Assembly (NCBI RefSeq): GCF_018977255.1
Contig: NW_024704743.1
Span: 11,410,001 to 11,474,000 of the forward strand
Direction: 5' to 3'
Length of the DNA stretch: 64,000 bases
Origin: Callorhinchus milii
Taxonomy: Eukaryota
In this document: positions 286 through 64,000 of the stretch, piece by piece
Layout: each line of letters opens with the position of its first letter
Numbering within the stretch: position 1 is the first letter of the stretch
The notes under the pieces: generated by a model
Seen by the model: the letters and a program-made list of their open reading frames with translations, nothing else
Told to the model about the DNA's origin: nothing
Databases searched by the model: none
Made by a program: the position numbers and the translations under genes

Positions 286-858
286 TTGGTTAGCTGGAAA
301 TACGGAAACCCATCAGCATGTTTAAGAGTATCCAAATCAAATGAGAATTCCATGTATCCCACCTACACATGGAAATCCCAGAGATAGATTGTTGGAATGG
401 AATGCACACTTTCCTTGGAGGGGCACATCCTGTTTACCTAATTCTGGATAGTATTAATTGCATGTTGGCAAGAACCAAGGCTTTAGATGGTTAGATTACA
501 GCAGTTACCCCAACACACACTCCCCAGTGTGCTGTAATCTAACCATCTAAAGCCACATAGTTTGCTATTGAGAGTACTGCCTGGCAAGCTTTCCCGCAGA
601 TGGGACCACCTTACCGTTAGGGCTTTGGCTTGCAGAGTTAATGGAAACTGAGCGGGATAATCCCTGAACCCAGTGACTGATCTGCCCTTCCAAGTCCTGC
701 CAATGAGCCAGGCTGGGCTGTGCTGTCCTCAGCAGTGCCCTGGAATACTGTGGACCCACCTGGTTCAGGAACTGGATGACCAAGACTGCTACAGAGGGCT
801 GGCTCGATTCTGACATTCTGTTGACAAACATGTCACCTTGGTGCCCGTTCAGTTCCAC
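286..858 (-). mobile_element. Unclassified ~570-nt A-tailed interspersed repeat (near full-length copy)
   Basis: Homologous to 54310-54846, 16985-17550 and others; T-run at the plus-strand left end; no tRNA boxes recognised. Confidence 0.75.
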
Positions 859-1350: not shown

Positions 1351-1408
1351 AATGGCTTTATAAATAGAGGCATAAAATATAAAAGTCAGGAAGTTATGAT
1401 GAACCTTT

Positions 1409-1990
1409 TGTAAAGAATTCAAACTAGACAAAAGCTAAAGTCTAATTCTATTTAATACAAAAAGCTCATAAGTCAGTTTCCCTGCTGGGCAACCTGAGTA
1501 ACAGCAATAGTAAAAGACGCGTAATGAAACAATACTACCAGATGACTGGAGGACTTCCCTTCTATGGTCGGCACGTTCACAGCTATTAACCCACGAACAA
1601 AGACAAGTCCAAAGTTCCAGTCTCACACTTATTTATAATTAAGTGTCCCATTGTCCTCCATATAAGGTTCTTCTTCATGCAGGACACAACCGCTTCCGGT
1701 TTCCCACTCATCCTTCTGCTTTGCACTCCGCACTGCGACCTTCGTTCTGTTGTTCAGACTCGGCTGCCCGCATATCTTCCCACTCTTGTGTAGCCAAGGT
1801 CTCTGAATACCACATTCCTTCTCCATAATCAGCATCCAGTACCCTCCTTATTATTCGTCAATCAACAAACTTACTCATAAGAGTGAGAACAGCTTTTACA
1901 ATTAACATCTTACATCTGCTTTGATTGTATTTACTCATGGGACTGCTTTAACTACTATGGGATTATACAGCATATATTTTAAACATAACA
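1409..1990 (-). repeat. 3' LTR of the retrovirus-like element
   Basis: Direct repeat of 8007-8588; TGTAAAG...CATAACA on the plus strand; adjacent to the PPT. Confidence 0.97.
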
Positions 1991-2096
1991 GTCCCCACCT
2001 TGATACCGAATTAACATGAGGTATCACAAATGAATAATAAAAAAACAAAAAGAAATAACATAACTTCTTAACACATGTATTAATCTTGAGAGCCAT
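1935..2096 (-). pseudogene. Vestigial env-position ORF (ATG + hydrophobic stretch running into PPT/LTR)
   Basis: TAATG stop-start overlap with IN; upstream splice-acceptor-like TGTGTCTTTCAG|G (2116-2128); MALKINTCVKKLCYFFLFFYYSFVI. Confidence 0.4.
1991..2002 (-). promoter_or_regulatory. Polypurine tract
   Basis: Minus strand CAAGGTGGGGAC immediately precedes the 3' LTR. Confidence 0.75.
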
Positions 2097-3355
2097 TATT
2101 GCGGATGATTCGTAACCTGAAAGACACAAGTGTAATATATGTTATTAATCAGGTTAGTTTCAGCGGGATTAGCTTTCCCTTTGCAATCCTTCATTTGATT
2201 AATGTAGACCCATTTAGCCTGTTTTGGGTTCAGGGGCATATGTACCAAATAAACAGCAGGGCTAGCTTTTTCCACAATTTCAAAAGGTCCTTTCCATTTG
2301 GCATCGAAAGGGGATTTAGATTTGCCATAAATCCGAACCATAACCTTGTCACCAATGGCCTTTTCTGTCAATGGAATAGCATTATCGTAGGCCTTCTTCA
2401 TGACCTGTTTAGCCCGCCCCGTATTTTGTGCCACAAATTGATTGGTTTGTTGGACCATTCTCAGAGTGTTCCGCATCCAATTTACCTCAGCAGTTCCCTG
2501 GAGTTTGATGTTACCTGTAACCTGTGTCAGAGCTTCTTGTGTCATAATCATAGTGCACCTAGGTAACCGCATTAGTCTACCGGTCATCACCTGATAAGGT
2601 GATATCCCAGTAGTCGTATGCGGAGTGGACCGGATTGCCATTAAACACATTGGCAATGCCATGACCCATTGCGAGGGGTGATCTGCACAAAACGTTTTTA
2701 ACAGTGTGTTTAAGGTTCGATTGCTGCGCTCCACCACTCCTGAAGACTGAGGGTGGTATGGAATGTGTAATTTATGCTGGATTTCCAATAGCGTCATGAA
2801 TTTGACAAAAACATCCCCCATGAAATGGGTTCCCTGATCACTATCAAGTGTTAACGGTATTCCCCACCTGCAGATCACCTCTCGCAACAACACCCGAGCC
2901 GCGGAGAGAGCAGTACAATTTTTGGTAGGGAAAGCTTCAATCCATTTAGTGAATTTATCGATAATGACCAGGCAATATGTATATCCGCCTTGAGCAGAAG
3001 GAAGAAGACCGATGAAGTCAATCTGGACATGACTCCGCGGCCCAGAAGGCGGGGGGGCAGACTGCAATGCTGCCCGCTTAGAAAGTGGATGAGGGTTGTG
3101 TTGAAGGCATACAATGCAATTGTTGCAAAGTGCAATTAGATCAGGACCCATTCGGGGCCACCAGACGTCCTCTGCAACTTTTGCAATTGTCTTTGAGGGA
3201 GAGAAATGTCCTCCTGTAGGGTGAGAGTGATATAAAGTGAACATGGCTTCAGCACACGATGGGGACACACACACCACCATCTTATGGTGAGTGGTGTACA
3301 TGAGGATGGGATTTAAGGGTTGAGTGTAAGGGGTGTAGAGAATCATATGCCGCAT
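2096..3355 (-). pseudogene. pol: Integrase (HHCC, DDE core, GPY/F C-terminal module); frame open but upstream pol broken
   Basis: HSHPTGGH..CIVC; QIDFIG; DSDQGTHF; YHPQSSGVVERSN; KWKGPFEI. Confidence 0.95.
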
Positions 3356-3529
3356 AACACATAAGGAGGCTCAACCAAAAACCCATTCTTTTCATTTTCT
3401 ATGAACCAGGAGCGAGCCTCTTGATATGGGGAGTAGGAATCCTGCATATTGTAGAGGTCGGACAGAGAGGGGTGACAATGAGTGGCGGCAACGTGTTCAT
3501 GGGGCACACTTGGTAAGGGGCCAGGCCAA

Positions 3530-3945
3530 AGGACAGCAGTTTGTGCACCCTTTTTAGCCTCGGAGTCTGCGTGGGCATTTCCAGCAGCATGAATTCCAGT
3601 GCGAGCATGACCTGGAATCTTCCCCACATAAATTGGGGCAGAGCGGTGTTGCAACAATTCAGCCAATGCCTTTAGCAAACCAGCATGAGTGAGAGTTTTA
3701 CCGGTAGCCATACAGAATTTCCGAGCAGAGTATAAGGGTAGCAGGAGGACGGTGTTAACCACATAAGCACTATTGGACCAAATATTAACTGGCATGGACA
3801 TAGAAGACTGAACCGCTTGAATCAAAGCTACTATCTCCGCATACTGAGCCGAGAATTGAGGAGGGTGTGACCACGGCAAAACCAGTGAACACTTTCCCTT
3901 CGACATGATATGAAGAGCCGTCAATGTACACATCATCGGCAACAC
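3530..3945 (-). pseudogene. pol: Second, retroviral/cellular RNase HI-type domain (frameshifted)
   Basis: VYIDGSS..GFAVV (ORF 3785..4192), then SAQYAEIVAL..NIWSNSAYVV..KIPGH..GNAHADSEAK (ORF 3343..3945). Confidence 0.9.
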
Positions 3946-4049
3946 AAGTTTCGGTAGACTCCAAAGGGAGTTTGTTTACACCGGACTCAGAGAAGTTAAT
4001 ACACGGCAATGGACACATGTGAGGGACACCAGAGTATAACAACATTTGG

Positions 4050-4529
4050 GGAATTAAAGTGGTAGGACCCGTAACAACAGATATATCGCGATCAACGAGA
4101 GTTAATGCCCACTTTGTAAGACGTTGCGAAGATACAAGAGTGTTACCCGGGTGCAAAAGCAATTTAACCGGTGTGTGAGGAGTGGAGAACAATCTTTTGT
4201 AACCTGGTGATATACTGGAACGCGGTAACGGCCCAACACACGGCTAGTAAGTGATGCTCGCATGCGTCAAATTGTTCTTCGACCCCAGTAAGTATATGAG
4301 AAATGTACGCAATGGGCATATATTTACCATCTCGAAGTTGGGTTAAAACGGCGGCGATGGAAGACTGGCCACCTGCTACCTCTAAATGGAAAGGGGAGTG
4401 AGGATCGGAGTACTGCAGAGATGTGGCTTGTATAACGGCTTGTTTTAAATAGGAGATGGCAGAGGTGTGTGACTCATCCCAAAGCTGTGTTAAATCATCG
4501 TTAACGTCTGATTTAAGCAGGCCGTACAA
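4050..4529 (-). pseudogene. pol: Degenerate first RNase H (tether/connection domain)
   Basis: Ty3/gypsy-type RNase H fold (PFHLEV..AAVLTQ..PIAYISHIL..CEHHLLAVCWAV..LHSSHTPV..QRLTKWAL) with the catalytic TDAS replaced by EVAG. Confidence 0.8.
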
Positions 4530-5700
4530 TGGTTTAGCGAGTTCAGCAAATTGGGGTAAAAATTGTCGCTAATACCCAACTAACCCGAGAAAAGAGCGCA
4601 GAGCAGTCTTAGTAACGGGTAGGGGCAGTTGCTGTATGGTGGAAATCTTGTGTTCATCGGGAGAGATTCCCGTAGCTTTGAGTTTGATACCGAGGAAGGG
4701 AACAGAGGGAACACATAACCTGGCCTTTGTCAGATTTAATTTTAAACCAGCCTGACTAAGACGTTGTAAAACAGAGCGTAGAGCAGTTTGGTGTGCACTT
4801 TCAGTAACAGTGGCAATGAGGATATCATCAACATATTGCAACACTGCAGTACCAGGAGGCCACACAATACCCTCCAAAACACGCACCATCCGTTTCTGGA
4901 AAATAGTGGGAGAGTTATGGAATTCCCTGTGGTAAAACAGTCCAAGTGGAGTCCTGCAGCTCAGTGGTTAGAGCACTCGCTTTGCAAGCGAGAGACCTGA
5001 GTTCAATTCCAGGCAGGGCGAAACCTTGGGCAAGTTTCCTTACTCCACACAGAGCCTAATAATAATCCCTCCAAAACAAAACAATAATAAATTGGTCATT
5101 TTCAATCTATGACTGTTTGTGGGACATTGCTGTGCACAATTGGCTGCCGCGTTCGCCCACAAATATACAGTCAATTCACTTTACAGTGTGTTCTGTGAAG
5201 CACTTTGGGACGTCCTCCCGAAGTGCAAAGAGCTATATCAAATGCAAGAATTATTATTATTATTATAAGTATATTGATGACCATTAAAGGTAAATGCAAA
5301 CTTGTACTGATCATTGTGCTTAACAGGAATACTCCAAAACCCATTTGAAATATCAAGAGTGGAAAAATATTTCACATGTTGGGGCACATCTTTCAGGAGT
5401 TGATTTAAATCGCTGACAACGGGGGCACAGACAGGGGTGACTTTATTAAGTTGCCGATAGTCAATGGTAAGACGCCAGGACTGATCAGGCTTCCTAACTG
5501 GCCAAACAGGGGAGTTGGTGGTGAAAGAACCTTCTCTCAGAACACCCTGTTGTATTAGACTGTCAATAGTGGATTGAACTGCGGGAATACTCTCCTTAGG
5601 AAGGGGGTATTGTTTACAGGGAGAATGAGTGGGGCCATTAACCTCCTCTTCGTCAATCAAACGACCACAATCATGTTTGTGGGTGGCCACTGTCATGGGA
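4530..5700 (-). pseudogene. pol: Reverse transcriptase domain of pol, split by a SINE and a 1-nt frameshift
   Basis: KQYPL..NSPVWPVRKPDQSWRLTIDYRQLN..LDISNGFWSIP..FAFTF..QYT|WTVLPQG(F)HNSPTIF..LQYVDDILIA..FLG..FLGLVGY. Confidence 0.95.
4948..5266 (+). mobile_element. Young tRNA-derived Deu-domain SINE inserted antisense into RT
   Basis: GGAGTCC start, A box TAGCTCAGTGG-like, B box GTTCAATTC, Deu core GCTGTGCGCAATTGGCTGCC-like, (ATT)n tail, AAGT TSD (4944-4947 / 5267-5270). Confidence 0.95.
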
Positions 5701-5829
5701 AACTTGTCAAGCAATTGGCGAACCCACAGCAACGGAGTTTTAATGGGGGCGTAGCGATTAGGTTGCTTAATAGCCCATACAGCATGCCTATCCAAAACCG
5801 TAACACATTCATTGCCGCCTTTGTCATCA

Positions 5830-6160
5830 GACAACCAAACACATCGGTTAGTATAATCAACAGTAGCACCCTGGGGAACTAGCTCGTCACCCCAGAGAAT
5901 TCCTGATTCGGTTAAATCCGTGACTGCAATAGGTCGTGACAACGTGATATGATGCCCGGACACAAGAACAGACAATGGTCATAAAACCTGACCGTACAGT
6001 ACCTTACCTGAAACCCCATTGAAGTCAATCTCTTTGTCAGTAGAAGGGGGAAATTGATTAGTATTATTAAATCAAATAAAGGTAGCAGTAGACCCAGAGT
6101 CCACCAACATTTTGTGTGTGACTCCGTCCACCGAAATTTTAATGAAAGGCCAGGGTCCCG
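5830..6160 (-). pseudogene. pol: Aspartic protease domain of pol (stop and frameshift)
   Basis: Manual translation GPWPFIKISVDGVTHKMLVDSGSTATFI* (DSG active site near 6100); GILWGDEL-type C-terminal motif in ORF 5238..5975. Confidence 0.85.
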
Positions 6161-6219
6161 GGGTTATAAAACGGGACACAAAACCGGTTAAGATCCTTCG
6201 GCGGCGGAGTCGCACACCT

Positions 6220-7863
6220 TCATTGCGCCCCGGAAGGGGGCGCGGAGGGTGTTACGGCAGCCACTTGCTGCTGTTTCTCCTGCTGTTGTTTTAAAAGCGC
6301 CTCCCCAAGTCTAGCCAGCAGGCCAGACTCAAAAGTCTCCTTCTATTTCTCGAGTTCCTCGGTGGGGTGGCCAGCGGCATCCTTCCTAAAACCCTTATAT
6401 GGACTATCCTTTCTGCTCCCCCTTTCGGGACAATCTGGTGACCAATGCCCCCTCCTACCGCACGTGAAACAAGTGCCACTTTTAGTACGAATTGGGGCCT
6501 GATTCTGCTTTGCGCTGGGTCGGACTCCTTCAACAGCAAGGTACTCATGTTCCTGTACTGCTGAACAGTCGTCTGGCTCCATCTTAACAGTTTTTTGGAT
6601 GGCCCCATGGCAACGGACAGCAATTCCCATTAGTTGGTCCCAGAGGGTATTAGGGTCTATGCCTACTCCGATAGCCACAGCAGTCTTTTTGTTCAGTCGA
6701 CCCAACCAATATTTTTTATATCTGTTTGATGCCTGACACTGTCCCCGATCCATCACTTGTTCCTGGCTTGCAGCATACAGGGGCCATAATCTCGAATGAA
6801 AAGTCTGAGGTCCCTCCTGAGTGGTTTGCCGACACTGGGTCAAATCCTCAGTAGCGTCTGTATGCCTGCGCAGAACTTCTGTGACGGCTATTTCCAACGG
6901 CCCTAACCGTCCACCTAACACAGCCGGATCAAGGGACCCCCTCAAATCCATATCCATCATGGCTTTTAGCACCTGGATTTTGTCATTATCCGTAAGGTGA
7001 GGATTGTCATCCTTCCAAATCCCCCACCTATGGGTCCATGTTAGCCAGGAATAGCCACGGGTGAGCTTTGGATCTAGCTGAGCGCAGTGGGCATTTACGT
7101 CTACAGGGGTAAGGGCTGAAGTAATGTTATCAGTTCCACCGAAATTCCCTCCAGCAGTTAATTTCCGCGTGGTTATTATCGGGCATACTTTCTCAGTCTC
7201 ATCGTTTAAATCTCCCCACTCGGGACCCTCACTAATGATGCCGCAAATGGCAGATACCAATTGACGAGAGCGTTTTTTTTCGAATGGTTTCCTGGCCGCT
7301 AGCCTTGCGGAATTTATCTAACTCCACCTGCTCCCTTCTACATATCTCTTGAATGCGCAAGGCACCCCTCAAGTCCTGGTTCTCCTGCATGACCATACTC
7401 AATTCCTCTCTGAGGCAAATGTTTTCTTCTGCCAGGTCTCCTGTTTCACCCTTATATTTGTTAAGTTTATGGTGTTGGTGAGGTGATTGATCTGATCCCT
7501 CAATACACCATTATGTTGCTCTTTTAACTTCAATTCCTCCTGGGCTTTGAATAGGTCTTGTTTGTAATCATTACACTGAATCTGCGCAGCTTGAAGTTTA
7601 GTTTCCTGAGTAGTGCAATTTTGTTGTGCCTGTTGGCAACTCCGCATCATCCAATATTTCAAAAGTATCTTTTTACCCTTCTTTCCTAACCTCCTCAGCC
7701 TTCCCAATTCCTCAGCCGCTAAACACAATTGTTCAAATCCCCCTGCAGATCAATGGACCACATCCTCGGATATATCATTGTTGCTAGCGCCAAGTTTCAA
7801 TTTCTTAACACGCTTTACTAATTCCTTCTCCATCTGGAGAGTCCACTCCAGAGGACCGTCCAT
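6220..7863 (-). pseudogene. gag: gag (N-terminal coiled coil, capsid-like region, CCHC zinc knuckle, C-terminal PSAP); disrupted by stops and frameshifts
   Basis: ORFs 7399..7728 (heptad-rich) and 6343..7260 (CFTCGRRGHWSPDC). Reading through the TAG at 6343 continues in frame to ...AVTPSAPPSGAQ* (TGA 6220-6222). Start position approximate. Confidence 0.85.
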
Positions 7864-7985
7864 AGCACCAAACTGTGATGCTAACCCCTTTCTGAATCAC
7901 CCACTCGAAAGCTGGGGACCATACTTGAGTATAGACTTATTCAACTTATGTCAGAGACGGGACAACCTACGGGGTTATACTGACT

Positions 7986-8003
7986 ATCCTGCCGACTACG
8001 CCA
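7986..8003 (-). promoter_or_regulatory. Primer binding site complementary to the tRNA-Ser 3' end
   Basis: Minus strand TGGCGTAGTCGGCAGGAT is the reverse complement of the vertebrate tRNA-Ser end ...ATCCTGCCGACTACGCCA; lies 3 nt inside the 5' LTR boundary. Confidence 0.92.
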
Positions 8004-8006
8004 AAT

Positions 8007-8588
8007 TGTAAAGAATTCAAACTAGACAAAAGCTAAAGTCTAATTCTATTTAATACAAAAAGTTCATAAGTCAGTTTCCCTGCTGGGCAACCCGAGTAAC
8101 AGCAATAGTAAAAGACGCGTAATGAAACAATACTACCAGATGACTGGAGGACTTCCCTTCTATGGTCGGCACGTTCACAGCTATTAACCCACGAACAAAG
8201 ACAAGTCCAAAGTTCCAGTCTCACACTTATTTATAATTAAGTGTCCCATTGTCCTCCATATAAGGTTCTTCTTCATGCAGGACACAACCGCTTCCGGTTT
8301 CCCACTCATCCTTCTGCTTTGCACTCCGCACTGCGACCTTCGTTCTGTTGTTCAGACTCGGCTGCCCGCATATCTTCCCACTCTTGTGTAGCCAAGGTCT
8401 CTGAATACCACATTCCTTCTCCATAATCAGCATCCAGTACCCTCCTTATTATTCGTCAATCAACAAACTTACTCATAAGAGTGAGAACAGCTTTTACAAT
8501 TAACATCTTACATCTGCTTTGATTGTATTTACTCATGGGACTGCTTTAACTACTATGGGATCATACAGCATATATTTTAAACATAACA
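8007..8588 (-). repeat. 5' LTR of the retrovirus-like element
   Basis: Direct repeat of 1409-1990 with 3 substitutions by eye; followed on the minus strand by ATT + PBS. Confidence 0.97.
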
Positions 8589-8885
8589 CTTTATAAAACA
8601 CTGGTTAGGCCTCAGCTAGAGTACTGTTTTCAGTTCTGGGCACCACATTTTAGTAAGGATGTCAAGGCATTGGAAAGGGTGCAAAGGAGATTTACCAGGA
8701 TGGTACCAGGAATGAAGGACTTCAGTTATCAGGAGAGGCCAGAGAAGCTGGGATTATTCTCCTTGGAGCAGAGGTTAAGAGGAGCCTTAATAGAAGTTTT
8801 CAAAATTATGAGGGGATTCGATAGGGTGAACAGCGAGAAACTATTTCCACTGGCGGGTTGGTAACCCAAGGACACAGGTTGGTAA
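8589..8885 (+). mobile_element. CR1 LINE ORF2 3' fragment (continues 1350-1408; target of the LTR element)
   Basis: ERVQRRFTRMVPGMK..LGLFSLEQ..EVFKIMRGFDRV; same family as 36362-36970. Confidence 0.9.
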
Positions 8886-24726: not shown

Positions 24727-25086
24727 GTGAAGTCCTGTAGCTTATTGGTTAGAGCACTCACCTCACAAGTGAGAGGATCTGGGTTCAATTCCCGGGTGGG
24801 TCAAAACATTAGGCTAGTTTCCTTATTGCACACACCTCTGTTTATCTAGCAGTAAGTAGGAACCAGGTTGTTAGTCGATTGGCAGACTGCTTTTGCAGGG
24901 GTAATAAATCCTTCAAAATAAAAAAAATGTCACTCAATCAATGACTGTTTATGGGACACCGCTGTGAGCAATTGGCTGCCGTGTTTTGCTCACAAAATAG
25001 TCAAGTCACTTTACAGTATATTCTATGAAGCCCTTTGAGACGTCTCAACAACGTGATCAAACACAAATGCAAGAATTATTATTATA
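24727..25086 (+). mobile_element. Deu-domain tRNA SINE
   Basis: tRNA head, Deu core, ATT tail. Confidence 0.8.
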
Positions 25087-34979: not shown

Positions 34980-35298
34980 AATAAACAATCCTTGCATTTG
35001 ATATAACGCTTTTCACATCTAGACGTCTCAAACCACTTCACAGAATACACTGTAGAGTGAATTAACTGTATATTTTCTGGGCGAAACGCAGCAGCCAATT
35101 ACACACAGCAGTGTCCCACAAACAATCATGACCAAAGTGACCAGAGTGACCAAATTATTATTGGTTTTTTNCTTGAGGGATTATTATCAGGCATGTGGAA
35201 TAAGGAAACTTGTCCAAGATTTTGCCCTGCCGGGAATCAAACCCAGGTCTCTCATTTGCAAGACGAGTGCTCTAACCACTGAGCTACAGGATTCCTCC
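34980..35298 (-). mobile_element. Deu-domain tRNA SINE
   Basis: Reverse-complement head, core and tail. Confidence 0.85.
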
Positions 35299-36970: not shown

Positions 36971-39379
36971 CCTAGTGGTAAGTTAGTTGATTGGCGGATT
37001 CCTTTATGGGGGTAATCATCCTTAAAAAAAGTGTTTGTGTGACACTGTTATGCAAGTGACAGCTGAGATTCTCCCACAAATACACAGTCAATCCACTTTA
37101 CAATATATTCTATGAAGAGCTTTGAGGCATCTCAACGACGTGATAAGGTGCTATAATCAAATGCAAGGATTATTATTATTTAAATCCCACCTTAAAATCT
37201 ACGCCTTTTCACCACATGGGTCACCTCCAACCCTGCACTGTGTGAAGGACACTATAACAATAATAATCCTTGCATTTGATATAGCGCCTTATCATGTCTT
37301 CAAGATGTCTCATAGCGCTTCAAGAGAATACACTGCAAAGTGAATTGACTATATTTTGTGGGTGAAATGAGGCATTAATATTATTATTATTACTTTATTA
37401 TTACATTTTCTGACTCACGGAATAAACCTGACATTTGACACCTGCGGTTCCTGACATGGCGTATCGCTGTACCATCCATACTGTGCGCTGTTGCTGGGTT
37501 CCCTGCTCTGTTTCTGTTCCATTGTAAGGGCCAGTGGGTGGGGAGAGATTAGTGCTTGCAATACATTGTCAATGCAGGAAGCTGGCAGAACCCTGCCGTG
37601 TTCCTGCTGTAAGAGAAGCTAATCCCCACGGTGTCTCATCACATTTACTATAAAACCTACAGCAGATTGTAGGGCACAGACACACCCAGCAACGTTCCGA
37701 GTTACATCTGAGAGCACGATGGATTCTAACCCCGGGAGCTGGGATAGTACTCCCGATAGGAGTGAGGGCTTGGGGGAGGAGGTATCTTAAATTCTTCCAG
37801 GACAATTTGGCAAATCTGTCAATTATTTCAGTCATTCACTCTATGGCTTTTTGTGGGGACTTTGCTGCCATGTTCGAGAATTGGCTGCCTCATTCACCTA
37901 CAAAATTTATGGTCTCCTCACTTTACTGTATATCCGATATTAAAGGAACTCTATCAAATGCAAGGAATGCCCCAAATAAAATTGGTCACTCATTTCATAG
38001 CTATTTGTGGGACATTGTTGTGCGCAATTGTGCTGCTGCATTTGCCTACAAATGCAGTCACTTCATTTCACAGTAATATCACAGTTGTGAAGCGCTTTGA
38101 GACATCCTTCCGACTCAGAGCTATACCAAATGCAAGGATTATGATTAATGGCCTGCTTCATATTTTGTAAAGCGCTTTGACATCTCAAAGTGTTTTCCAG
38201 AATATACTGTAAAGTGAATTGACTGTATATTATGTGGGCGAAACTATAGAAATGCAAGTTGTTGCATTCAATTGAGACATTGAAAGGAGCGATCAGGCCC
38301 CCTCTGGCTGTATGTGGGCTGAGCCTTACCATTTTATCGAACGATCAGGTTCTGGTCGTATCCCTCACGGCTGTTTGCGGGACATTGCTGTGCGCAAACA
38401 GCTGCATTCGCCTGCAAAATACACAGCTGCTGCACTTTACAGTGAAAATCCTGTGCAGTGCTTTGCGACATTCTCCCGATGTGAAAGGTGCTATATAAAA
38501 TGCAAGGACTATTGATTATTTATAAATAATAATTTAGAATTATTATTATGATACAGGGTTCACTAATATTAAGGCTCCCAAAAAAGGCAAGTTGTTGCAT
38601 TTATTTTATAAATTAACAGCGTGGCTGCCCCAGATCAGTCCTTTCGCTTCTCACTATTCTCCGGTTGATCTCTGCCCCCGATCCCACCCATCACTCTGCT
38701 CTCCCCTCGCTGACTACAGTTCCCGTCTTCATTCACAACATTCTTTCTTTCCGAGTGACTGGGCTGCATTGACTCCAACCAAAGTCAGAAATTATTAACT
38801 GTTCGGCTGGAGAGGATGATGATTTACAAAGTGTGTACACATGAAATAGTAAACCTACATAACGCTTTCATACATCCTGATCAATACTTCAGAGCTCTGC
38901 TCCCATAGCTGAACTCTGAATTTCATACTTCAGGTGACCAAAGCTCCTCCTGGATCTATACCTTTTCCTTACCATTTTAGAGCATTTAGAGTAATTTTTA
39001 AATAAAAAAATACTATTGTACTAATAATCTTTGTATATCATGCAGCACCTTTCATGTCAGGAAGTCGTTTCAAAGCTCTTCACAGGATATAATCTAAATT
39101 GCAGTGTCTGTGTAGGCAAACACAGCAGCCAATTTGCACATAACAATGTTTACTTTCTCAGCCCCCTCAACACCCATGAAGTGAATGACCTGATTGTTGG
39201 CCAGGACACTGGGAGAAACAGTATTTCTCTTTTTGAACAGTAGTTTAACATAACATAATATGTAGGAGCAGGAGTAGGCCATTCAGCCCTTCGAGCCTGC
39301 CCCACCATTCAATCATGGCTGATCTTCTAATCCAACTCCAGCTAATAACCTGACCCTGCCTTATCCCCATATCCCTTAA

Positions 39380-42130
39380 TCTCTGTTGCAATAAGAAATC
39401 TATCTCAGTCTTGAATATGTTCAAGGACTGAGCGTCAACAATCCTTTGGGATAGCGAGTTCCATACATTCACTACCCTTTGAGTGAAGAAGTTCTTCCTC
39501 AACTCAGTGCAAAAGGGCTGGCCTCTGATTTTAAGGTTGTGACCCCTGGTTTTAGTTTCTCCAACCAGGGGAAACAATCTCCCACTATCTACTCTATCAT
39601 GCGCTTTGATGATCTTATAGGTTTCTGTAAGATCCCCTCTAATTCTTCTATATTCTAGAGAATATAGGCCCAAATTGGTCAGTCTATCCTCGTAACTCAT
39701 CCCCTTCATCCCTGGTACTAACCTAGTAAATCTACGCTGCACCCCCTCAAAGGCAAGTACATCCTTCCTTAAATAAGGAGACCAAAACTGCACACAGTAT
39801 TCCAGGTGTGGTCTCACCAGGGCCCTATACAGTTGCAGCAAGACTTCCCTACTCTTATACTCTAATCCTTTCATAATGAATGCTAACATACCGTTCACCT
39901 TCCTAATTTCTTGCTGCACCTGCAGACTAACTTTGTGTGATTGGTGTACAAGGACACCCAAGTCCCTCTGGACGCTAACACATTCCAATCTCTCCCCTTC
40001 TAAAAAATAACCCGCTCTACTGTTTTTGCTACCGAGGTGGATGACTTCGCACTTCCCTACATTATACTTCATCTGCCACCTACCTGCCCAATCACCTAAC
40101 CTATCTATGTCTCGCTGCATTTTTTAAATGTTGTCCTCTGTGTTGATACTTCCTCCTAATTTTGTGTCATCCGTGAATTTAGATATATTGACTTCGATGT
40201 CCTCATCTAGATCGTTGATGTCGATGGTAAATAGCTGAGGCCCAAGGACTGATCCTTGTGGCATTCCACTAGTCACATCCCGCCAATCTGAAAAGGACCC
40301 TTTTATCCTTACTCTTTGTCTCCTACCCGTTAACTATTCCCCATATGCTCCCCCCAATTCCATGGGCCCTTATCTTTTGGACTAACCTTTTATGCGGCAC
40401 CTTATCGAATGCTTTCTAGAAGTCCAAATAGACCACATCCACTGATTCACCCTTATCTAGTTTACTGGAAATATCCTCAAAAAACTCTTATGAGGTTTGA
40501 CAATCGTGACTTCCCTTTTGTAAAGCCGTGTTGACTTGGCCTAATTATATTGTGCTCCCCTAAATACCGCACTACCACATCCTTAACCAACGATTCTAAC
40601 ATTTTTCCCATCACTGATGTGAGACTAACTGGCCTATAGATCCCCATCTTTTCCTTTCCACCTTTTTTAAATAGTGGTGTGACATTTGCGATCTTCCAAT
40701 CCATGGGGACTGTTCCAGAATCCAAGGAATTTTGGAAGATCAGACACAAGGCCTCCACTATCTCATAAGCTACTTCTTTTAAAACCCTGGGATGCAAGCC
40801 ATCCGGACCAGGGGATTTATCACCTTTTAGTGCTAACAGTTTCCCTAGCACCAATTCTCTACTAATGAAAATTTCCCTAAGTTGCTCCCTGTCCTTATCC
40901 CTTGGTGCATCTCTATTGTTGGCAGACTTGTTGTGTCTTCTAGGGTGAAGACAGATGCAAAGTACCCATTTAGGGACTCTGCCATGTCCTTATCCCCCAT
41001 TACAACTTCTCCCGTCTCTGACTGAAGTGGACCTACATTTACCCTCACTAGCCTATTCCTCTTAATATATTTGTAAAAACTTTTACAATCAGACTTAATG
41101 TTCCTAGCTAGCTTACCCTCATACTCCTTTTTCTCGCTCTTAATGAGTTTCTCAGTTTTATTTTGCTGGTTTCTAAAACTTTCCCAATCTTCAGATTGCT
41201 TTTCTTGGCAGTTTTATAAGCCTTTTCTTTTAATTTGATGCTTTTCCTAACTACTCTAGTTAGCCACGGATGAATTGCTTTCCCAGTACTCTTATTCCGC
41301 AAAGGAATATGCGACCGCTGAGAATTTTGCACTACATCCTTAAATATTTGCCATTGTTGGTCTACATTTTTACCTCTTAATCTTACTCTCCAGTCTATTT
41401 TACCTAAATCTTTCCTCATACCCACAAAATGAGCCCTATTTAAATTCAGAATACTTGCCTCGGATTTAACTATATTCCTCTCTAACTTAATGCAGAATTC
41501 AATCATATTGTGATAGAGGATTCTTAATACCTACGCTGCCAACTAGCCCTGTTTCGTTACACAAAACAAGGTCTAGAATGGCCTGTCCCCTAGTTGGTTC
41601 CTCAGCATGCTGCTCCAGAAAGTTATCTCTCATACACTCAATGAACTCTTCTTCTGACCTACTTTTGCCGATTTGGTTTTCCCAATCTATGTGGAGATTG
41701 AAATCACCCACTATTATCGCTTTACCTTTCCTACATGCTCCACTTATTTCTTGATTAATACCCTGTGCTATATTGTGATCAATGTTTGGGGGTCTATAAA
41801 CCACTCCCATTAATATTTTCTGTCCTTTATTATTTTTTATTTCCACCCATATTGTCTCGACCTCCTGGTCATCGGATTTCAGATCCTTCCTCTCCACTGC
41901 TTTTATTTCATCCCTAATTAACAGGACTACTCCCCCCACCTCTTTTCCCACAGTGCCTATCTTTCCTGTAAACTGAGACCCCTGGAATATTTAACTCCCA
42001 CCCTAGATCTCCTTGTAACCATGTTTCAGTGATCGCTACTAGATCGTACCCATCTGTGTCTATCTGTGCTTTTAATTCATCAGTTTTATTCTGAATGCTT
42101 TGCGCATTCAGATATAACATTTTTAATTTC
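39380..42130 (-). pseudogene. CR1 ORF2: APE endonuclease + reverse transcriptase (frameshifted)
   Basis: YLNAQSI..AITETWL; GVVYRPP..VGDFN..PTRGQAILDLVL; SPGPDGLHP..YRPVSLTS..QHGF; WQMKYNVGKC..LVRPHLEYCVQFWSP. Confidence 0.92.
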
Positions 42131-42289: not shown

Positions 42290-43525
42290 TTAAATTCCTA
42301 TTTATTTCCCTGTTAATTCGTTTAGCTAGGACATTTGTCCCAGCACGATTTAAATGCAGCCCTCTTCTCCGAAAGAGCTCTCTTTTCCCCCAATACTTGT
42401 GTCAATGGCCCATAAAAAGAAACCACTCATTTAGCCATGCGTTCAAGTCCTTAACTTGTTTGTTCCTGTACCAATTGTCGTATGGTACAGGCAGCAGTCC
42501 CGATATTACCACCTTTGATGATCTCAACTTCAATTTGGACCCCAGCTCTTCGAATTCCCTTCTCAAATCATCTTGGCCAACTCTACCGATGTTATTGGTA
42601 TCTATGCGAAGTACCACCAACGGATCCTTGCCCTCATGTTTTAAATTATCCTCTAGCCCTGCCGAGACATCTTTCACCCCGGCCCCAGGGAGGCAACAAA
42701 GCCTTTGAGTCTTCTGGTTGGTGATGCAGATGATTGTGGAGTCCTGTAGCTCAGTGGTTAGAGCACTCGCTTTGCAAGCGAGAGACCTGAGTTCAATTCC
42801 AGGCAGGGCGAAACCTTGGGCAAGTTTCCTTACTCCACACAGAGCCTAATAATAATCCCTCCAAAAAAACAAAACAATAATAAATTGGTCATTTTCAATC
42901 TACGACTGTTTGTGGGACATTGCTGTGCGCAATTGGCTGCCGCGTTTGCCCACAAATATACAGTCAATTCACTTTACAGTGTGTTCTGTGAAGCGCTTTG
43001 GGACGTCCTCCCGACGTGAAAAGCGCTATATCAAATGCAAGGATTATTATTATTATTATTAAGGATTATTATTATTATTGTGTCTGTCTGCCATCTCCAA
43101 TGACAACAACCTCCGCTCTTTTGCCCCAGTGTTAGAGGTAGTTTTTCCTTCCACCTCACCGGCTTCCTTGTCGATACAAGTTCCAAGGATCTCATACCTG
43201 TTGTTCAAGGTTAATGCCGGATTAACTATCACTCTTTCTGTTGTCCCCTGACCTCCTGACTGTCCATTGACCTATCTTGACCATAACCAATGTTGAGTGT
43301 ATATTCTCTCAGGGGAGTAACTGGCTACAGGATGTAGCTATCCAGGAAGCACTCACTGTCTCTGATACTCCGTAGTGTCTGCACCTCGGATTCCAGCTCA
43401 GCCACTCCGAGCTGGAGCTGCCTCAGTTGCAGACATCTTCTTCAGATGTGGTCGCCCGGGGTCAGACTGCCCTTCATCAGCTCCCATATGTCACACTCCT
43501 CACATAATACCTGCCACACCATTAT
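42290..43525 (-). pseudogene. CR1 ORF1: zinc finger/leucine zipper + SGNH esterase-like domain, split by a SINE
   Basis: CEECDIW..RCLQLRQLQLGVAELESEVQTLRSIR near 43370-43520; LPGAGVKDVS..IDTNNIGR..VVISGLLPVP..LNAWL in 42402-42700. Confidence 0.8.
42738..43076 (+). mobile_element. Young Deu-domain tRNA SINE inserted into CR1 ORF1
   Basis: Young consensus; ATTGT TSD; duplicated AAGG(ATT)n tail. Confidence 0.95.
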
Positions 43526-60497: not shown

Positions 60498-61254
60498 ATT
60501 TTCAAAAGGCGATTGATAAAGTGCCACATAAGAAACTTGTAAGCAAAGTAGAAGCCTAAGCCCATGGTATTAAATGGACAGTGGCAGCATGGATACAGAA
60601 CTGGCTCGGTGACAGAAAGCAAAGAGAGAGAGTGGTGGTGAATGGTTATTTTTCTGACTGGAGGGAAGTGTGCAATGGTGTCCTCCAGGGGTCAGTATTG
60701 GGACCACTGCTGTTTTTGATCCATATAAATGACATGGACTTGGGTATAGGGAGTACAATTTCTAAGTTTGCAGATGATGCTAAGCTAGGAAAAATAGTGA
60801 GGAGGATAGAAGAAGAAATAGACATAGACGGACTGGTAACATGGGCCGACATGTGGCAAATGAAGTTTAATGTGGAGAAATGCAAAGTGATGCATTTTGG
60901 GAGGAAGAATGAGGAGAGACAATATCAGCTGATGATAAAGGAGGTGAAGGAACAGAGAGACCTGGGGGTTCATATAAGTAAATCTTTGAAGGTGGCAGGA
61001 GAGGTAGATAAGGCTGTTAAAAAAGCATATGGGATACTAGGCTTTATACGGCATAGAATACAAAAGTTAGTAAGTTTGGTTAGGATTCAGCTAGAGTTCT
61101 GTGTTCAGTTCTGGGCACCACACTTTAGGAAGGATGTCAAGGCATTTGAGAAGGTGCAAAGAAGATTTACCAGGATGGTACCAAGAATGAGGACTTCAGT
61201 TATCAGGAGAGGTGAGAGATGCTGGATTATGCTACTTGGAGCAGAGAAGATTAA

Positions 61255-62160
61255 TCATAAAATCATATAGCACAGAAAGAGGCCATTCGGTCCATCGTGT
61301 CTGCACCAGCTCCGAAAAGAGCAATCCAATTCAATCCCACTGGCCCGCTTTCTCTCATAGCCCTGCAATCCTGTCCTCCCCAAATACCCATCTACTTCTC
61401 TCTTAAAAGTTGTCATTTAACCAGCTTCCACTATCCTTTCAGGTAATGCATTCCAGATCCGAACAACTCGCTGGGTGAAATTTTTTTCCTAACTCTATTT
61501 CTTTTAACAACTATCTTAAATCAATGTCCTCGGGTTACTGACCCACATGCCAGTGGAAACAGCTTTTCCCGGTTCAACCTATCAAATCCTCTCACGATCT
61601 TGAATACCTCTATTGAATCCCCTCTTAATCTTCTCTGCTCTAGGGAGAATAACCCTAGTTTCGCTAACGTCTCCTCAAAACTAAGGTACTTCATTCCTGG
61701 TACCATCCTGGTAAACCTCCTTTGCAACCTCTCCAATGCCCTCACATTTTTCCTAAAGTGCGGTGCCCAGAACTGAACGCAGTACACCAACTGAGGCCTA
61801 ACCAGCATTTTATAAATATTCAACTTTTGAATTCTCTGCCCCTATTTATAAAGCCTAGTATCCCATATGCTTTTTTAACAGCTTTATCTACCGGTCCTGC
61901 CACCTTCAGAGATTTACTTATGTGGACTCCAAGGTCTCTCTGTTCCTTCATCCCCTTTAAGATTGTACCATCATCTTATACTGCCTCCTCAATCTTCCTA
62001 CCAAAATGCAACACTTTGCATTTCTCCACATTAAACCTCATCTGCCACGTTTCTGCCCATTTTACCAATCTGTCTAAATCCTCTTGGACTGGTGATATCC
62101 TCCATTAACTACTTTTCCTAGCTTAGTATCCTCCGCAAATTTGGAAATTGTGCTCCCTAT
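61255..62160 (-). mobile_element. CR1 3' fragment nested antisense
   Basis: LVRPQLVYCVQFWAPHFRK..LERLQRRFTRM..TRGH; host CR1 resumes at ~62165. Confidence 0.88.
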
Positions 62161-63837: not shown

Positions 63838-64000
63838 AGTCCTGTAGCTCAGTGGTTAGAGCACTCGCTTTGCAAGCGAGAGACCTGAGTTCAATTCCAG
63901 GCAGGGCGAAACCTTGGGCAAGTTTCCTTACTCCACACGCCTAATAATAATCCCTCCAAAACAAAAAAAAAACAATAATTAAATTGGTCATTTTCAATCT
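63838..64000 (+). mobile_element. Young Deu-domain tRNA SINE (cut by the window edge)
   Basis: Young consensus head. Confidence 0.9.

What the first reader, a model, noticed from the sequence alone, without database searches (positions are those of the whole stretch)
1409..8588. Complete LTR element with retrovirus-type dual RNase H but no env (lokiretrovirus/Odin-like)
Seen: pol has a gypsy-fold RNase H with its first catalytic motif destroyed (EVAG instead of TDAS), followed by a second RNase HI-type domain (YIDGS..SAQYAE..GH..GN..AD). It also has YVDD RT, IN with a GPY/F module, a 4-bp TSD and a tRNA-Ser PBS. Established: tether + second RNase H is the hallmark of Retroviridae and of their closest relatives (lokiretroviruses, which carry a fusion-protein-like env, and env-less Odin elements), not of ordinary Ty3/gypsy. 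Inference: this is a basal retrovirus-like lineage in a probable cartilaginous fish, a host group from which I do not recall such elements being described (needs verifying).
Basis: partly seen in the sequence, partly recalled or inferred. Interest (0 to 1): 0.82.

Follow-up and report, generated by a model that had tools for sequence, protein, structure and literature searches.

The report
Envelope-less endogenous retrovirus in a chimaera
This is a broken, envelope-less fossil of a true retrovirus from a family already reported in the elephant shark, not a lokiretrovirus or Odin-type missing link, although another branch of the same family carries an unusual envelope gene worth a closer look.

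Summary
The anatomy is real: a 7.18-kb minus-strand element with 582-nt LTRs (3 mismatches), 4-bp TSD, tRNA-Ser(AGA) PBS, CCHC gag, YVDD RT split by a SINE, tether plus second RNase H, integrase with GPF, and no env. The loki/Odin reading fails. Dual RNase H is standard in all retroviruses. The RT lacks loki/Odin signatures and falls inside canonical retroviruses (99/99); grouping it with lokiretroviruses is rejected (AU p=0.025 and 0.016). RT, RNase H and integrase all place it beside same-genome elements with the same PBS, one of which matches Han 2015's CmiERV lineage I (SnRV-like) and carries a gamma-type env. It is therefore most likely a dead, env-lost member of an early-branching, already described shark ERV family; cartilaginous-fish hosts are not new. 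Side result: another branch of this family (10 places) carries a non-gamma, Ig-domain envelope ORF whose layout, and a weak collinear match, resemble lokiretrovirus/foamy F-like Env. This is unproven. True lokiretrovirus copies in the assembly look like lamprey contamination. Two look-ups showed no earlier scan note of this element.

The parts
1405..1408 (.). Target-site duplication, left copy (4 bp)
1409..1990 (-). 3' LTR, 582 nt
1991..2035 (-). Polypurine tract (1993-2001) and a ~45-nt box nearly identical in env-bearing relatives
2036..2095 (-). Short spacer where env lies in relatives; no env trace
2096..3270 (-). Integrase: HHCC 3098-3229, D-D-E 3008-3022 / 2831-2845 / 2726-2740, GPF 2282-2290; one unbroken frame
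3565..3928 (-). Second, retroviral-type RNase H, split over two frames; best PDB hits are MLV/XMRV and foamy RNase H
4188..4481 (-). Tether: degenerate gypsy-type RNase H lacking catalytic Asp residues
4570..5618 (-). Reverse transcriptase, YVDD at 4824-4835, interrupted by the SINE and a frame change
4947..5265 (+). tRNA-Ala-derived SINE inside RT; 93-97% identical to many genomic copies; absent from the 89%-identical relative L064
5800..6110 (-). Aspartic protease region (DSG 6093-6101), broken; boundaries approximate
6343..7863 (-). gag in several pieces, one CCHC zinc knuckle at 6430-6471; start approximate
7986..8003 (-). Primer-binding site for tRNA-Ser(AGA), 3 nt from the LTR
8007..8588 (-). 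5' LTR, 582 nt
8589..8592 (.). Target-site duplication, right copy; the target is a high-copy LINE (CR1-type label recalled)

Best explanation
A defective endogenous retrovirus of an early-branching canonical lineage (non-class I, non-class II; called SnRV-like, clade Huo or class III-related in the literature). It is a sister subfamily of CmiERV lineage I of the elephant shark, and it lost env secondarily. It worked like any retrovirus: tRNA-Ser-primed reverse transcription, an inert tether spacing the active second RNase H, and integrase insertion with a 4-bp duplication. Without env it could only copy itself inside germ-line cells or travel with a helper. Shown: anatomy, tree placement, env in relatives, solo LTRs. 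Inferred: env loss rather than primary absence; and, because about nine to ten lesions sit between LTRs only 0.5% apart, that the genome was already damaged when it inserted (mobilised in trans) or that the LTRs were homogenised later.
For: Best database relative of the integrase is a Xenopus tropicalis Pol (51%), ahead of loki Pols (36-40%); summed tblastn bits against the window are 1104 versus 576. RT tree, 56 rows, LG+G4: both window RT halves join L013/L017 (100/100), then Xenopus P0001 (97/82) and frog/coelacanth Pols (96/94), inside canonical retroviruses (99/99), with loki outside (100/100). A mixture model on 36 rows agrees (99/97). IN and RNase H give the same sisters (100/99 each). 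AU rejects family+loki (p=0.025) and lineage+loki (p=0.016). L017 matches the published CmiERV_Scaffold 2 over 330 nt with 2 differences by eye and shares the PBS. Gamma-type env is long in 4 family loci and a remnant in 3, of 25 loci scanned; the class I element L029 also hit (Pfam TLV_coat, CX6CC and TM). Internal env deletions are visible in L014/L015 and L078/L079. 7 of 8 full-length solo LTRs have perfect 4-bp TSDs. SnRV, WEHV-1 and a gamma-type Pol show the same PF17919+PF00075 pair.
Against: My trees do not recover a clade with SnRV itself: deep nodes are open, and AU neither rejects lineage+SnRV (p=0.245) nor lineage+foamy (p=0.19). In the IN tree, loki nests weakly (81/89) among frog/coelacanth relatives of this lineage, and in the RNase H tree the lineage lies on the loki+foamy side (91/92). 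The window holds no env remnant, so loss is argued by parsimony only; the two closest copies (89-90% DNA identity) lack the 3' region in the stretches fetched. No Odin, class II, ERV-L or fish foamy-like reference was in the trees. The AU tests used LG+G4, which by the tool's own simulations sometimes rejects true clades.
Confidence: 0.85

Rival explanations
1. A lokiretrovirus or Odin-like element, primarily env-less, at the retrotransposon-retrovirus boundary.
For: The tether still scores strongly on the gypsy RNase H profile (76 bits; loki 94, SnRV 46, gamma 42) and its first motif resembles loki's. IN and RNase H trees leave the lineage near loki at weak support.
Against: Loki and Odin RTs share an SRWP motif and a PFGY.NSP motif (supplements); the window lacks SRWP, and its close relatives have LPQG like canonical retroviruses (the window's own letters there are disturbed by the SINE). 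RT trees and AU tests exclude it from loki. Relatives carry env.
Confidence: 0.03
2. A member of the shark/frog foamy-like group (CmiFLERV with XtrFLERV) of Aiewsakun and Katzourakis 2017, for which only pol was detected.
For: That paper found elephant-shark and X. tropicalis sequences clustering together; the closest outside relative here is also from X. tropicalis. The best PDB integrase hit is foamy virus. Lineage+foamy is not rejected (p=0.19).
Against: Gag has a CCHC knuckle, said to be absent from spumaviruses (PMC8278194 passage). Free trees never join the family to foamy viruses. The CmiFLERV sequences were not in the supplement text I could search, so identity was not tested.
Confidence: 0.08
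3. A canonical-retrovirus lineage whose branch never had env, with env gained separately in the other branches.
For: Several branches (window, L020, L025, L022/L028) have only 157-390 nt between IN and the pre-LTR box and no env trace. The two env types in the family look unrelated.
Against: The Ig-type env occurs in the first-branching subfamily and also in L129 on the other side of the split (90/90, unstarred; L129 is a long branch). Env deletions are directly seen within the gamma-type subfamily.
Confidence: 0.04

Closest known systems
CmiERV lineage I of Callorhinchus milii (Han 2015, PMC4422223; whole text and supplement passages read)
   Same: Same PBS; sister in RT, RNase H and IN trees; 65-72% DNA identity over pol blocks; near-identical pre-LTR box and PPT.
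   Different: Different LTR family; gag only about 40-43% identical; no env, so Han's env-dependent screen would not have picked it as a seed.
SnRV-like / clade Huo / class III SnRV-related ERVs with gamma-type Env (PMC6001957, PMC4977317, bioRxiv 2021.11.23.469661; passages read)
   Same: Non-class I/II canonical retrovirus of fish and amphibians, YVDD RT; env/pol incongruence is described as common in anamniotes.
   Different: No supported clade with SnRV itself in my trees; the relatives' env shows no hit to SnRV env.
Lokiretroviruses (Wang and Han, PMC7947760; parts 1-3 of 4 and supplement parts read)
   Same: Tether plus second RNase H; gypsy-like tether.
   Different: RT outside the loki clade; lacks loki RT signatures; no F-like env in this copy; loki reported in 0 of 3 chondrichthyan genomes (supplement row).
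Odin retrotransposons (PMC9040795; parts 1-2 of 4 and supplement passages read)
   Same: gag-pol only, dual RNase H, no env.
   Different: Odin RT has loki-type signatures and F[VI]DD; sea-anemone hosts; env-lessness here looks secondary.
XtERV-S, ERV3 and ERV4 (PMC8278194, PMC4299795; passages read)
   Same: XtERV-S also uses a serine tRNA and pairs a class III pol with a class I-like env.
   Different: XtERV-S has YIDD, dUTPase and no zinc finger; ERV3/ERV4 typically have 5-bp TSDs, no zinc finger and no GPF/Y. This element has YVDD, CCHC, GPF, a 4-bp TSD and no Pfam dUTPase hit.

Membership tests
Canonical Retroviridae (ERV) | LTRs, TSD, PBS, PPT, gag-PR-RT-RH-IN order | tested here: met
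Canonical Retroviridae (ERV) | Tether plus second RNase H | tested here: met
Canonical Retroviridae (ERV) | RT inside the canonical retrovirus clade | tested here: met
   99/99, 99/97, 99/98
Canonical Retroviridae (ERV) | env gene | tested here: not met
   Absent in this copy; present in family members. Filed as an env-lost ERV on that basis.
CmiERV lineage I family | Pol sister to the published lineage I element; same PBS | tested here: met
   L017 equated with CmiERV_Scaffold 2 by eye over 330 nt
SnRV-like / clade Huo | Pol clusters with snakehead retrovirus | tested here: inconclusive
   Not recovered, not rejected (AU p=0.245); Han 2015 reports it for lineage I
Lokiretrovirus | Dual RNase H | tested here: met
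   not diagnostic
Lokiretrovirus | RT in the loki clade | tested here: not met
   loki rows identified by matching published RT text by eye
Lokiretrovirus | F-like env | tested here: not met
   No env in the window copy; only a weak resemblance in another subfamily
Odin | Dual RNase H and no env | tested here: met
Odin | Loki/Odin RT sequence signatures | tested here: not met
   by eye against supplement text
Odin | Tree placement with Odin sequences | not testable with these tools
   No Odin sequence was available as a stored record
Foamy / FLERV | No CCHC knuckle in Gag | tested here: not met
   zf-CCHC at 6430-6471
Foamy / FLERV | RT clusters with foamy viruses | tested here: inconclusive
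   Not recovered; AU p=0.19; fish FLERVs and CmiFLERV not in the tree
ERV3 / ERV4 | 5-bp TSD, no zinc finger, no GPF/Y | tested here: not met
   4-bp TSD here and at 7 of 8 solo LTRs; CCHC and GPF present; criteria
Ty3/gypsy (Metaviridae) | Single catalytically intact gypsy RNase H; RT among gypsy | tested here: not met

The most novel reading that the evidence does not exclude
The window element belongs to one of the earliest-branching canonical retrovirus families, and that family's older envelope, seen in its first-branching subfamily in this genome (L018, L019, L024, L075, L122-L124, L129), is a class Ib F-like fusogen with an added N-terminal Ig-like domain, related to lokiretrovirus and foamy Env. 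One branch replaced it with a gamma-type env and others, including this one, lost env. One family in one genome would then record the switch from F-like to gamma-type envelope, and F-like Env would be ancestral across loki, foamy and basal canonical retroviruses. Basis: furin site to TM about 413 aa, against about 406 (loki), 389-390 (foamy) and 130-144 (4 of 5 gamma-type; the fifth lacked a detected site), no CX6CC; collinear but weak profile matches to both halves of loki Env (E=0.038 and 0.0024; score 31.9 against 11-18 in 6 controls; HH probability only 12%). Against: no Pfam or PDB hit, fold unusable, and SnRV env may have a similar layout (357 aa from its nearest site).
Probability: 0.3. 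Interest if true: 0.72.

Novelty: new member of a known kind. Interest (0 to 1): 0.33.

Why it matters
The element itself adds a complete env-less subfamily to a known but thinly described shark ERV family, which is modest. It is a caution that dual RNase H without env does not diagnose Odin or loki. Two by-products matter more. The family shows three envelope states (gamma-type, an unassigned Ig-domain type, none), which makes the open question of how often retroviruses gained or swapped env (scenarios in PMC7947760 and PMC9040795; F-like foamy Env in PMC11468914) testable within one family. And the assembly holds lamprey-type lokiretroviruses on small contigs that could be misreported as the first chondrichthyan lokiretroviruses.

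Tried and rejected
Viral-contig search with P0001 alone found nothing; an alignment query and a short foamy RT pattern then gave references. The representative-protein search was crowded by long multi-domain gypsy proteins but gave P0291, about 80% identical to the window's RT. CmiFLERV and XtrFLERV sequences were not in the supplement text. The paper on cartilaginous-fish foamy viruses (PMC9972966) is not held. The conserved pre-PPT hairpin folds no better than shuffles (z=-0.53), so no structure is claimed. Ig-type env: Pfam 0 significant hits for 5 L019 pieces and none for the read-through; PDB only contactin-2 at E 0.02-0.03 for the Ig part and nothing for the rest; Atlas no usable hit; single-sequence AlphaFold pLDDT 33.6, so no fold search was run. 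My first reading that L021 shows gamma-type env in a second subclade was wrong: the remnant follows an IN copy of the L013 subfamily. Empty-site joints were set aside because the target is a high-copy LINE. No RNA holder is listed; expression was not assessed. Rows dropped before trees: near-duplicates, surplus gypsy and class I rows, two long plant rows (lists); RT and IN pieces shorter than the cut-offs. Earlier scan notes did not bear on this element.
Full report
Observation. The element lies on the minus strand at 1409-8588. The LTRs are 582 nt with three transitions, and CTTT flanks both ends. The PBS (7986-8003) matches tRNA-Ser(AGA) genes of the same genome, and a PPT abuts the 3' LTR. 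Pfam finds a CCHC knuckle, RT in two pieces, a gypsy-type RNase H-like domain, a second RNase H, and integrase; motif places are. The first RNase H-like domain lacks the acidic residues that gypsy rows keep. The second hits MLV/XMRV and foamy RNase H structures. A tRNA-Ala SINE (about 4947-5265) interrupts RT. Only 181 nt separate the last integrase motif from the pre-LTR box, with no env hit, and contigs from 4 of 4 public runs (2 studies) cover that junction and several of the internal breaks with few differences. The description is accurate and is not an assembly artefact.

Dual RNase H is not diagnostic. Wang and Han (PMC7947760) state that retroviruses in general carry tether plus RNase H, and SnRV, WEHV-1 and a gamma-type Pol give the same Pfam pair. 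Placement therefore rests on sequence. The integrase's best database relative is a Xenopus tropicalis Pol (51%), well ahead of proteins whose RT text matches published lokiretroviruses (36-40%). Further relatives come from frogs, coelacanth and bowfin.

Trees. References were stored records only: loki proteins and L026, SnRV (L083, identified by its RT text), foamy, gamma and epsilon contigs and gypsy proteins; the gypsy, gamma and epsilon labels are mine, from Pfam make-up, motifs and source names. The two window RT halves, entered as separate rows, join same-genome L013/L017 at 100/100, inside canonical retroviruses at 99/99, with loki outside. A mixture model agrees. AU tests reject union with loki for the five-row family (p=0.025) and the eleven-row lineage (p=0.016), but not union with foamy (0.19) or SnRV (0.245). 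IN and RNase H trees give the same sisters, with deep nodes weak and loki sometimes close. Loki and Odin share RT signatures that the family lacks. Odin itself could not be put in a tree.

Known relative and host. Han 2015 (PMC4422223) described CmiERV lineage I from the elephant shark as clustering with SnRV. Its published sequence around the PBS matches L017 over 330 nt with two differences by eye. The host is thus very probably Callorhinchus milii (inference), and the family is in print. Whether this exact copy was among Han's short fragments I could not tell.

Envelope states. Of 25 loci scanned with a gamma-type env profile, four family members have a long hit and three a remnant; all fall in the L013/L017 subfamily where they could be placed. 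That env has TLV_coat, CX6CC and a TM, with nearest relatives in sharks, a ray and a sturgeon. Within that subfamily L014/L015 and L078/L079 show shared internal deletions, so env loss followed by further copying is seen directly. A different subfamily carries, right after IN, a broken ORF of about 2.1 kb with an Ig-like domain (Pfam E=2e-4), a furin site, helical and Cys-rich parts and a TM-like end, found at 10 places, 8 with pol adjacent. It branches first within the family in the RT tree (family 100/97, remainder 90/90) and is unresolved in the IN tree. With env on both sides of the window's branch, loss is the simplest reading. The fold of this second env is not established; the evidence for and against an F-like assignment is in the section on the most novel reading.

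History of this copy. LTR distance is 0.0052, or about 1-12 million years over three assumed rates. About nine to ten lesions in 6 kb is more than that distance predicts, so the RNA was probably already defective and packaged in trans, or the LTRs were homogenised (inference). The subfamily is small: two partial relatives at 89-90% and eight full-length solo LTRs, seven with perfect 4-bp TSDs; these searches give lower bounds.

Literature seen: PMC4422223 whole text and supplement passages; PMC7947760 parts 1-3 of 4, supplement searches and parts 68, 70, 71; PMC9040795 parts 1-2 of 4 and supplement passages; PMC5512871 passages, section 5 and supplement searches; PMC10699275 part 2 of 4; passages only of PMC12440569, PMC4299795, PMC6001957, PMC4977317, PMC8278194, PMC11468914 and bioRxiv 2021.11.23.469661. 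Ten searches were run. Repbase and subscription papers were not searchable, so this subfamily may already have a name.

Verdict. Observation confirmed; interpretation partly supported. A dead, env-lost member of a known early-branching shark ERV family: new member of a known kind, interest 0.33. The upside lies in the sister subfamily's unassigned envelope, not in the loki/Odin claim.

Noticed in passing
L019:833-2961 (-); also L018, L024/L127, L075/L125, L122, L123, L124, L126, L128, L129: A subfamily of the same ERV family has, after integrase, a broken ~2.1-kb envelope-like ORF with an Ig-like domain, furin site and TM-like end; not gamma-type; layout and a weak collinear match resemble loki/foamy F-like Env.
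   Followed up: partly
L026, L027, L056, L058, L059, L061, L062 (G000 contigs C548, C466, C364, C909, C771, C556, C1182, C333): Lokiretrovirus copies whose RT differs from the published lamprey Loki-Lca by 1-2 of 151 residues by eye. All 9 strong matches are on high-numbered contigs (the two with known length are 56 and 62 kb). The host SINE is in 0 of 12 such small-contig loci against 10 of 12 other loci, though many loci are mostly element. Probably lamprey contamination; a recent transfer is not excluded.
   Followed up: partly
L030, L031, L032 and many contigs numbered above C80: Near-identical gypsy elements with long open frames, 54-61% GC in the three loci measured, on high-numbered contigs; same suspicion of foreign DNA.
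   Followed up: no
L014, L015, L078, L079: Two pairs of copies share internal env deletions, suggesting that env-less derivatives multiplied after the deletion.
   Followed up: partly
window 1991-2035: About 45 nt before the 3' LTR are nearly identical across subfamilies that are only 65-72% alike in pol and have different LTRs; probably a cis signal. Its hairpin is not significant against shuffles.
   Followed up: partly
L029 (G000:C2:91874000-91883500): A class I-like ERV family with long open pol frames at several places on large scaffolds; probably CmiERV lineage II or III, not checked.
   Followed up: no
window 24732-24803, 35222-35293, 42741-42810, 63839-63908: Further ARAGORN tRNA calls (one Val, three Ala); the Ala calls are probably heads of the same SINE family.
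   Followed up: no
window 39245-40123 (-), 60560-61270 (+): The only other stop-to-stop frames of 200 aa or more in the window; not examined.
   Followed up: no
window 479-554: A perfect 25-nt inverted repeat with 26 nt between the arms.
   Followed up: no
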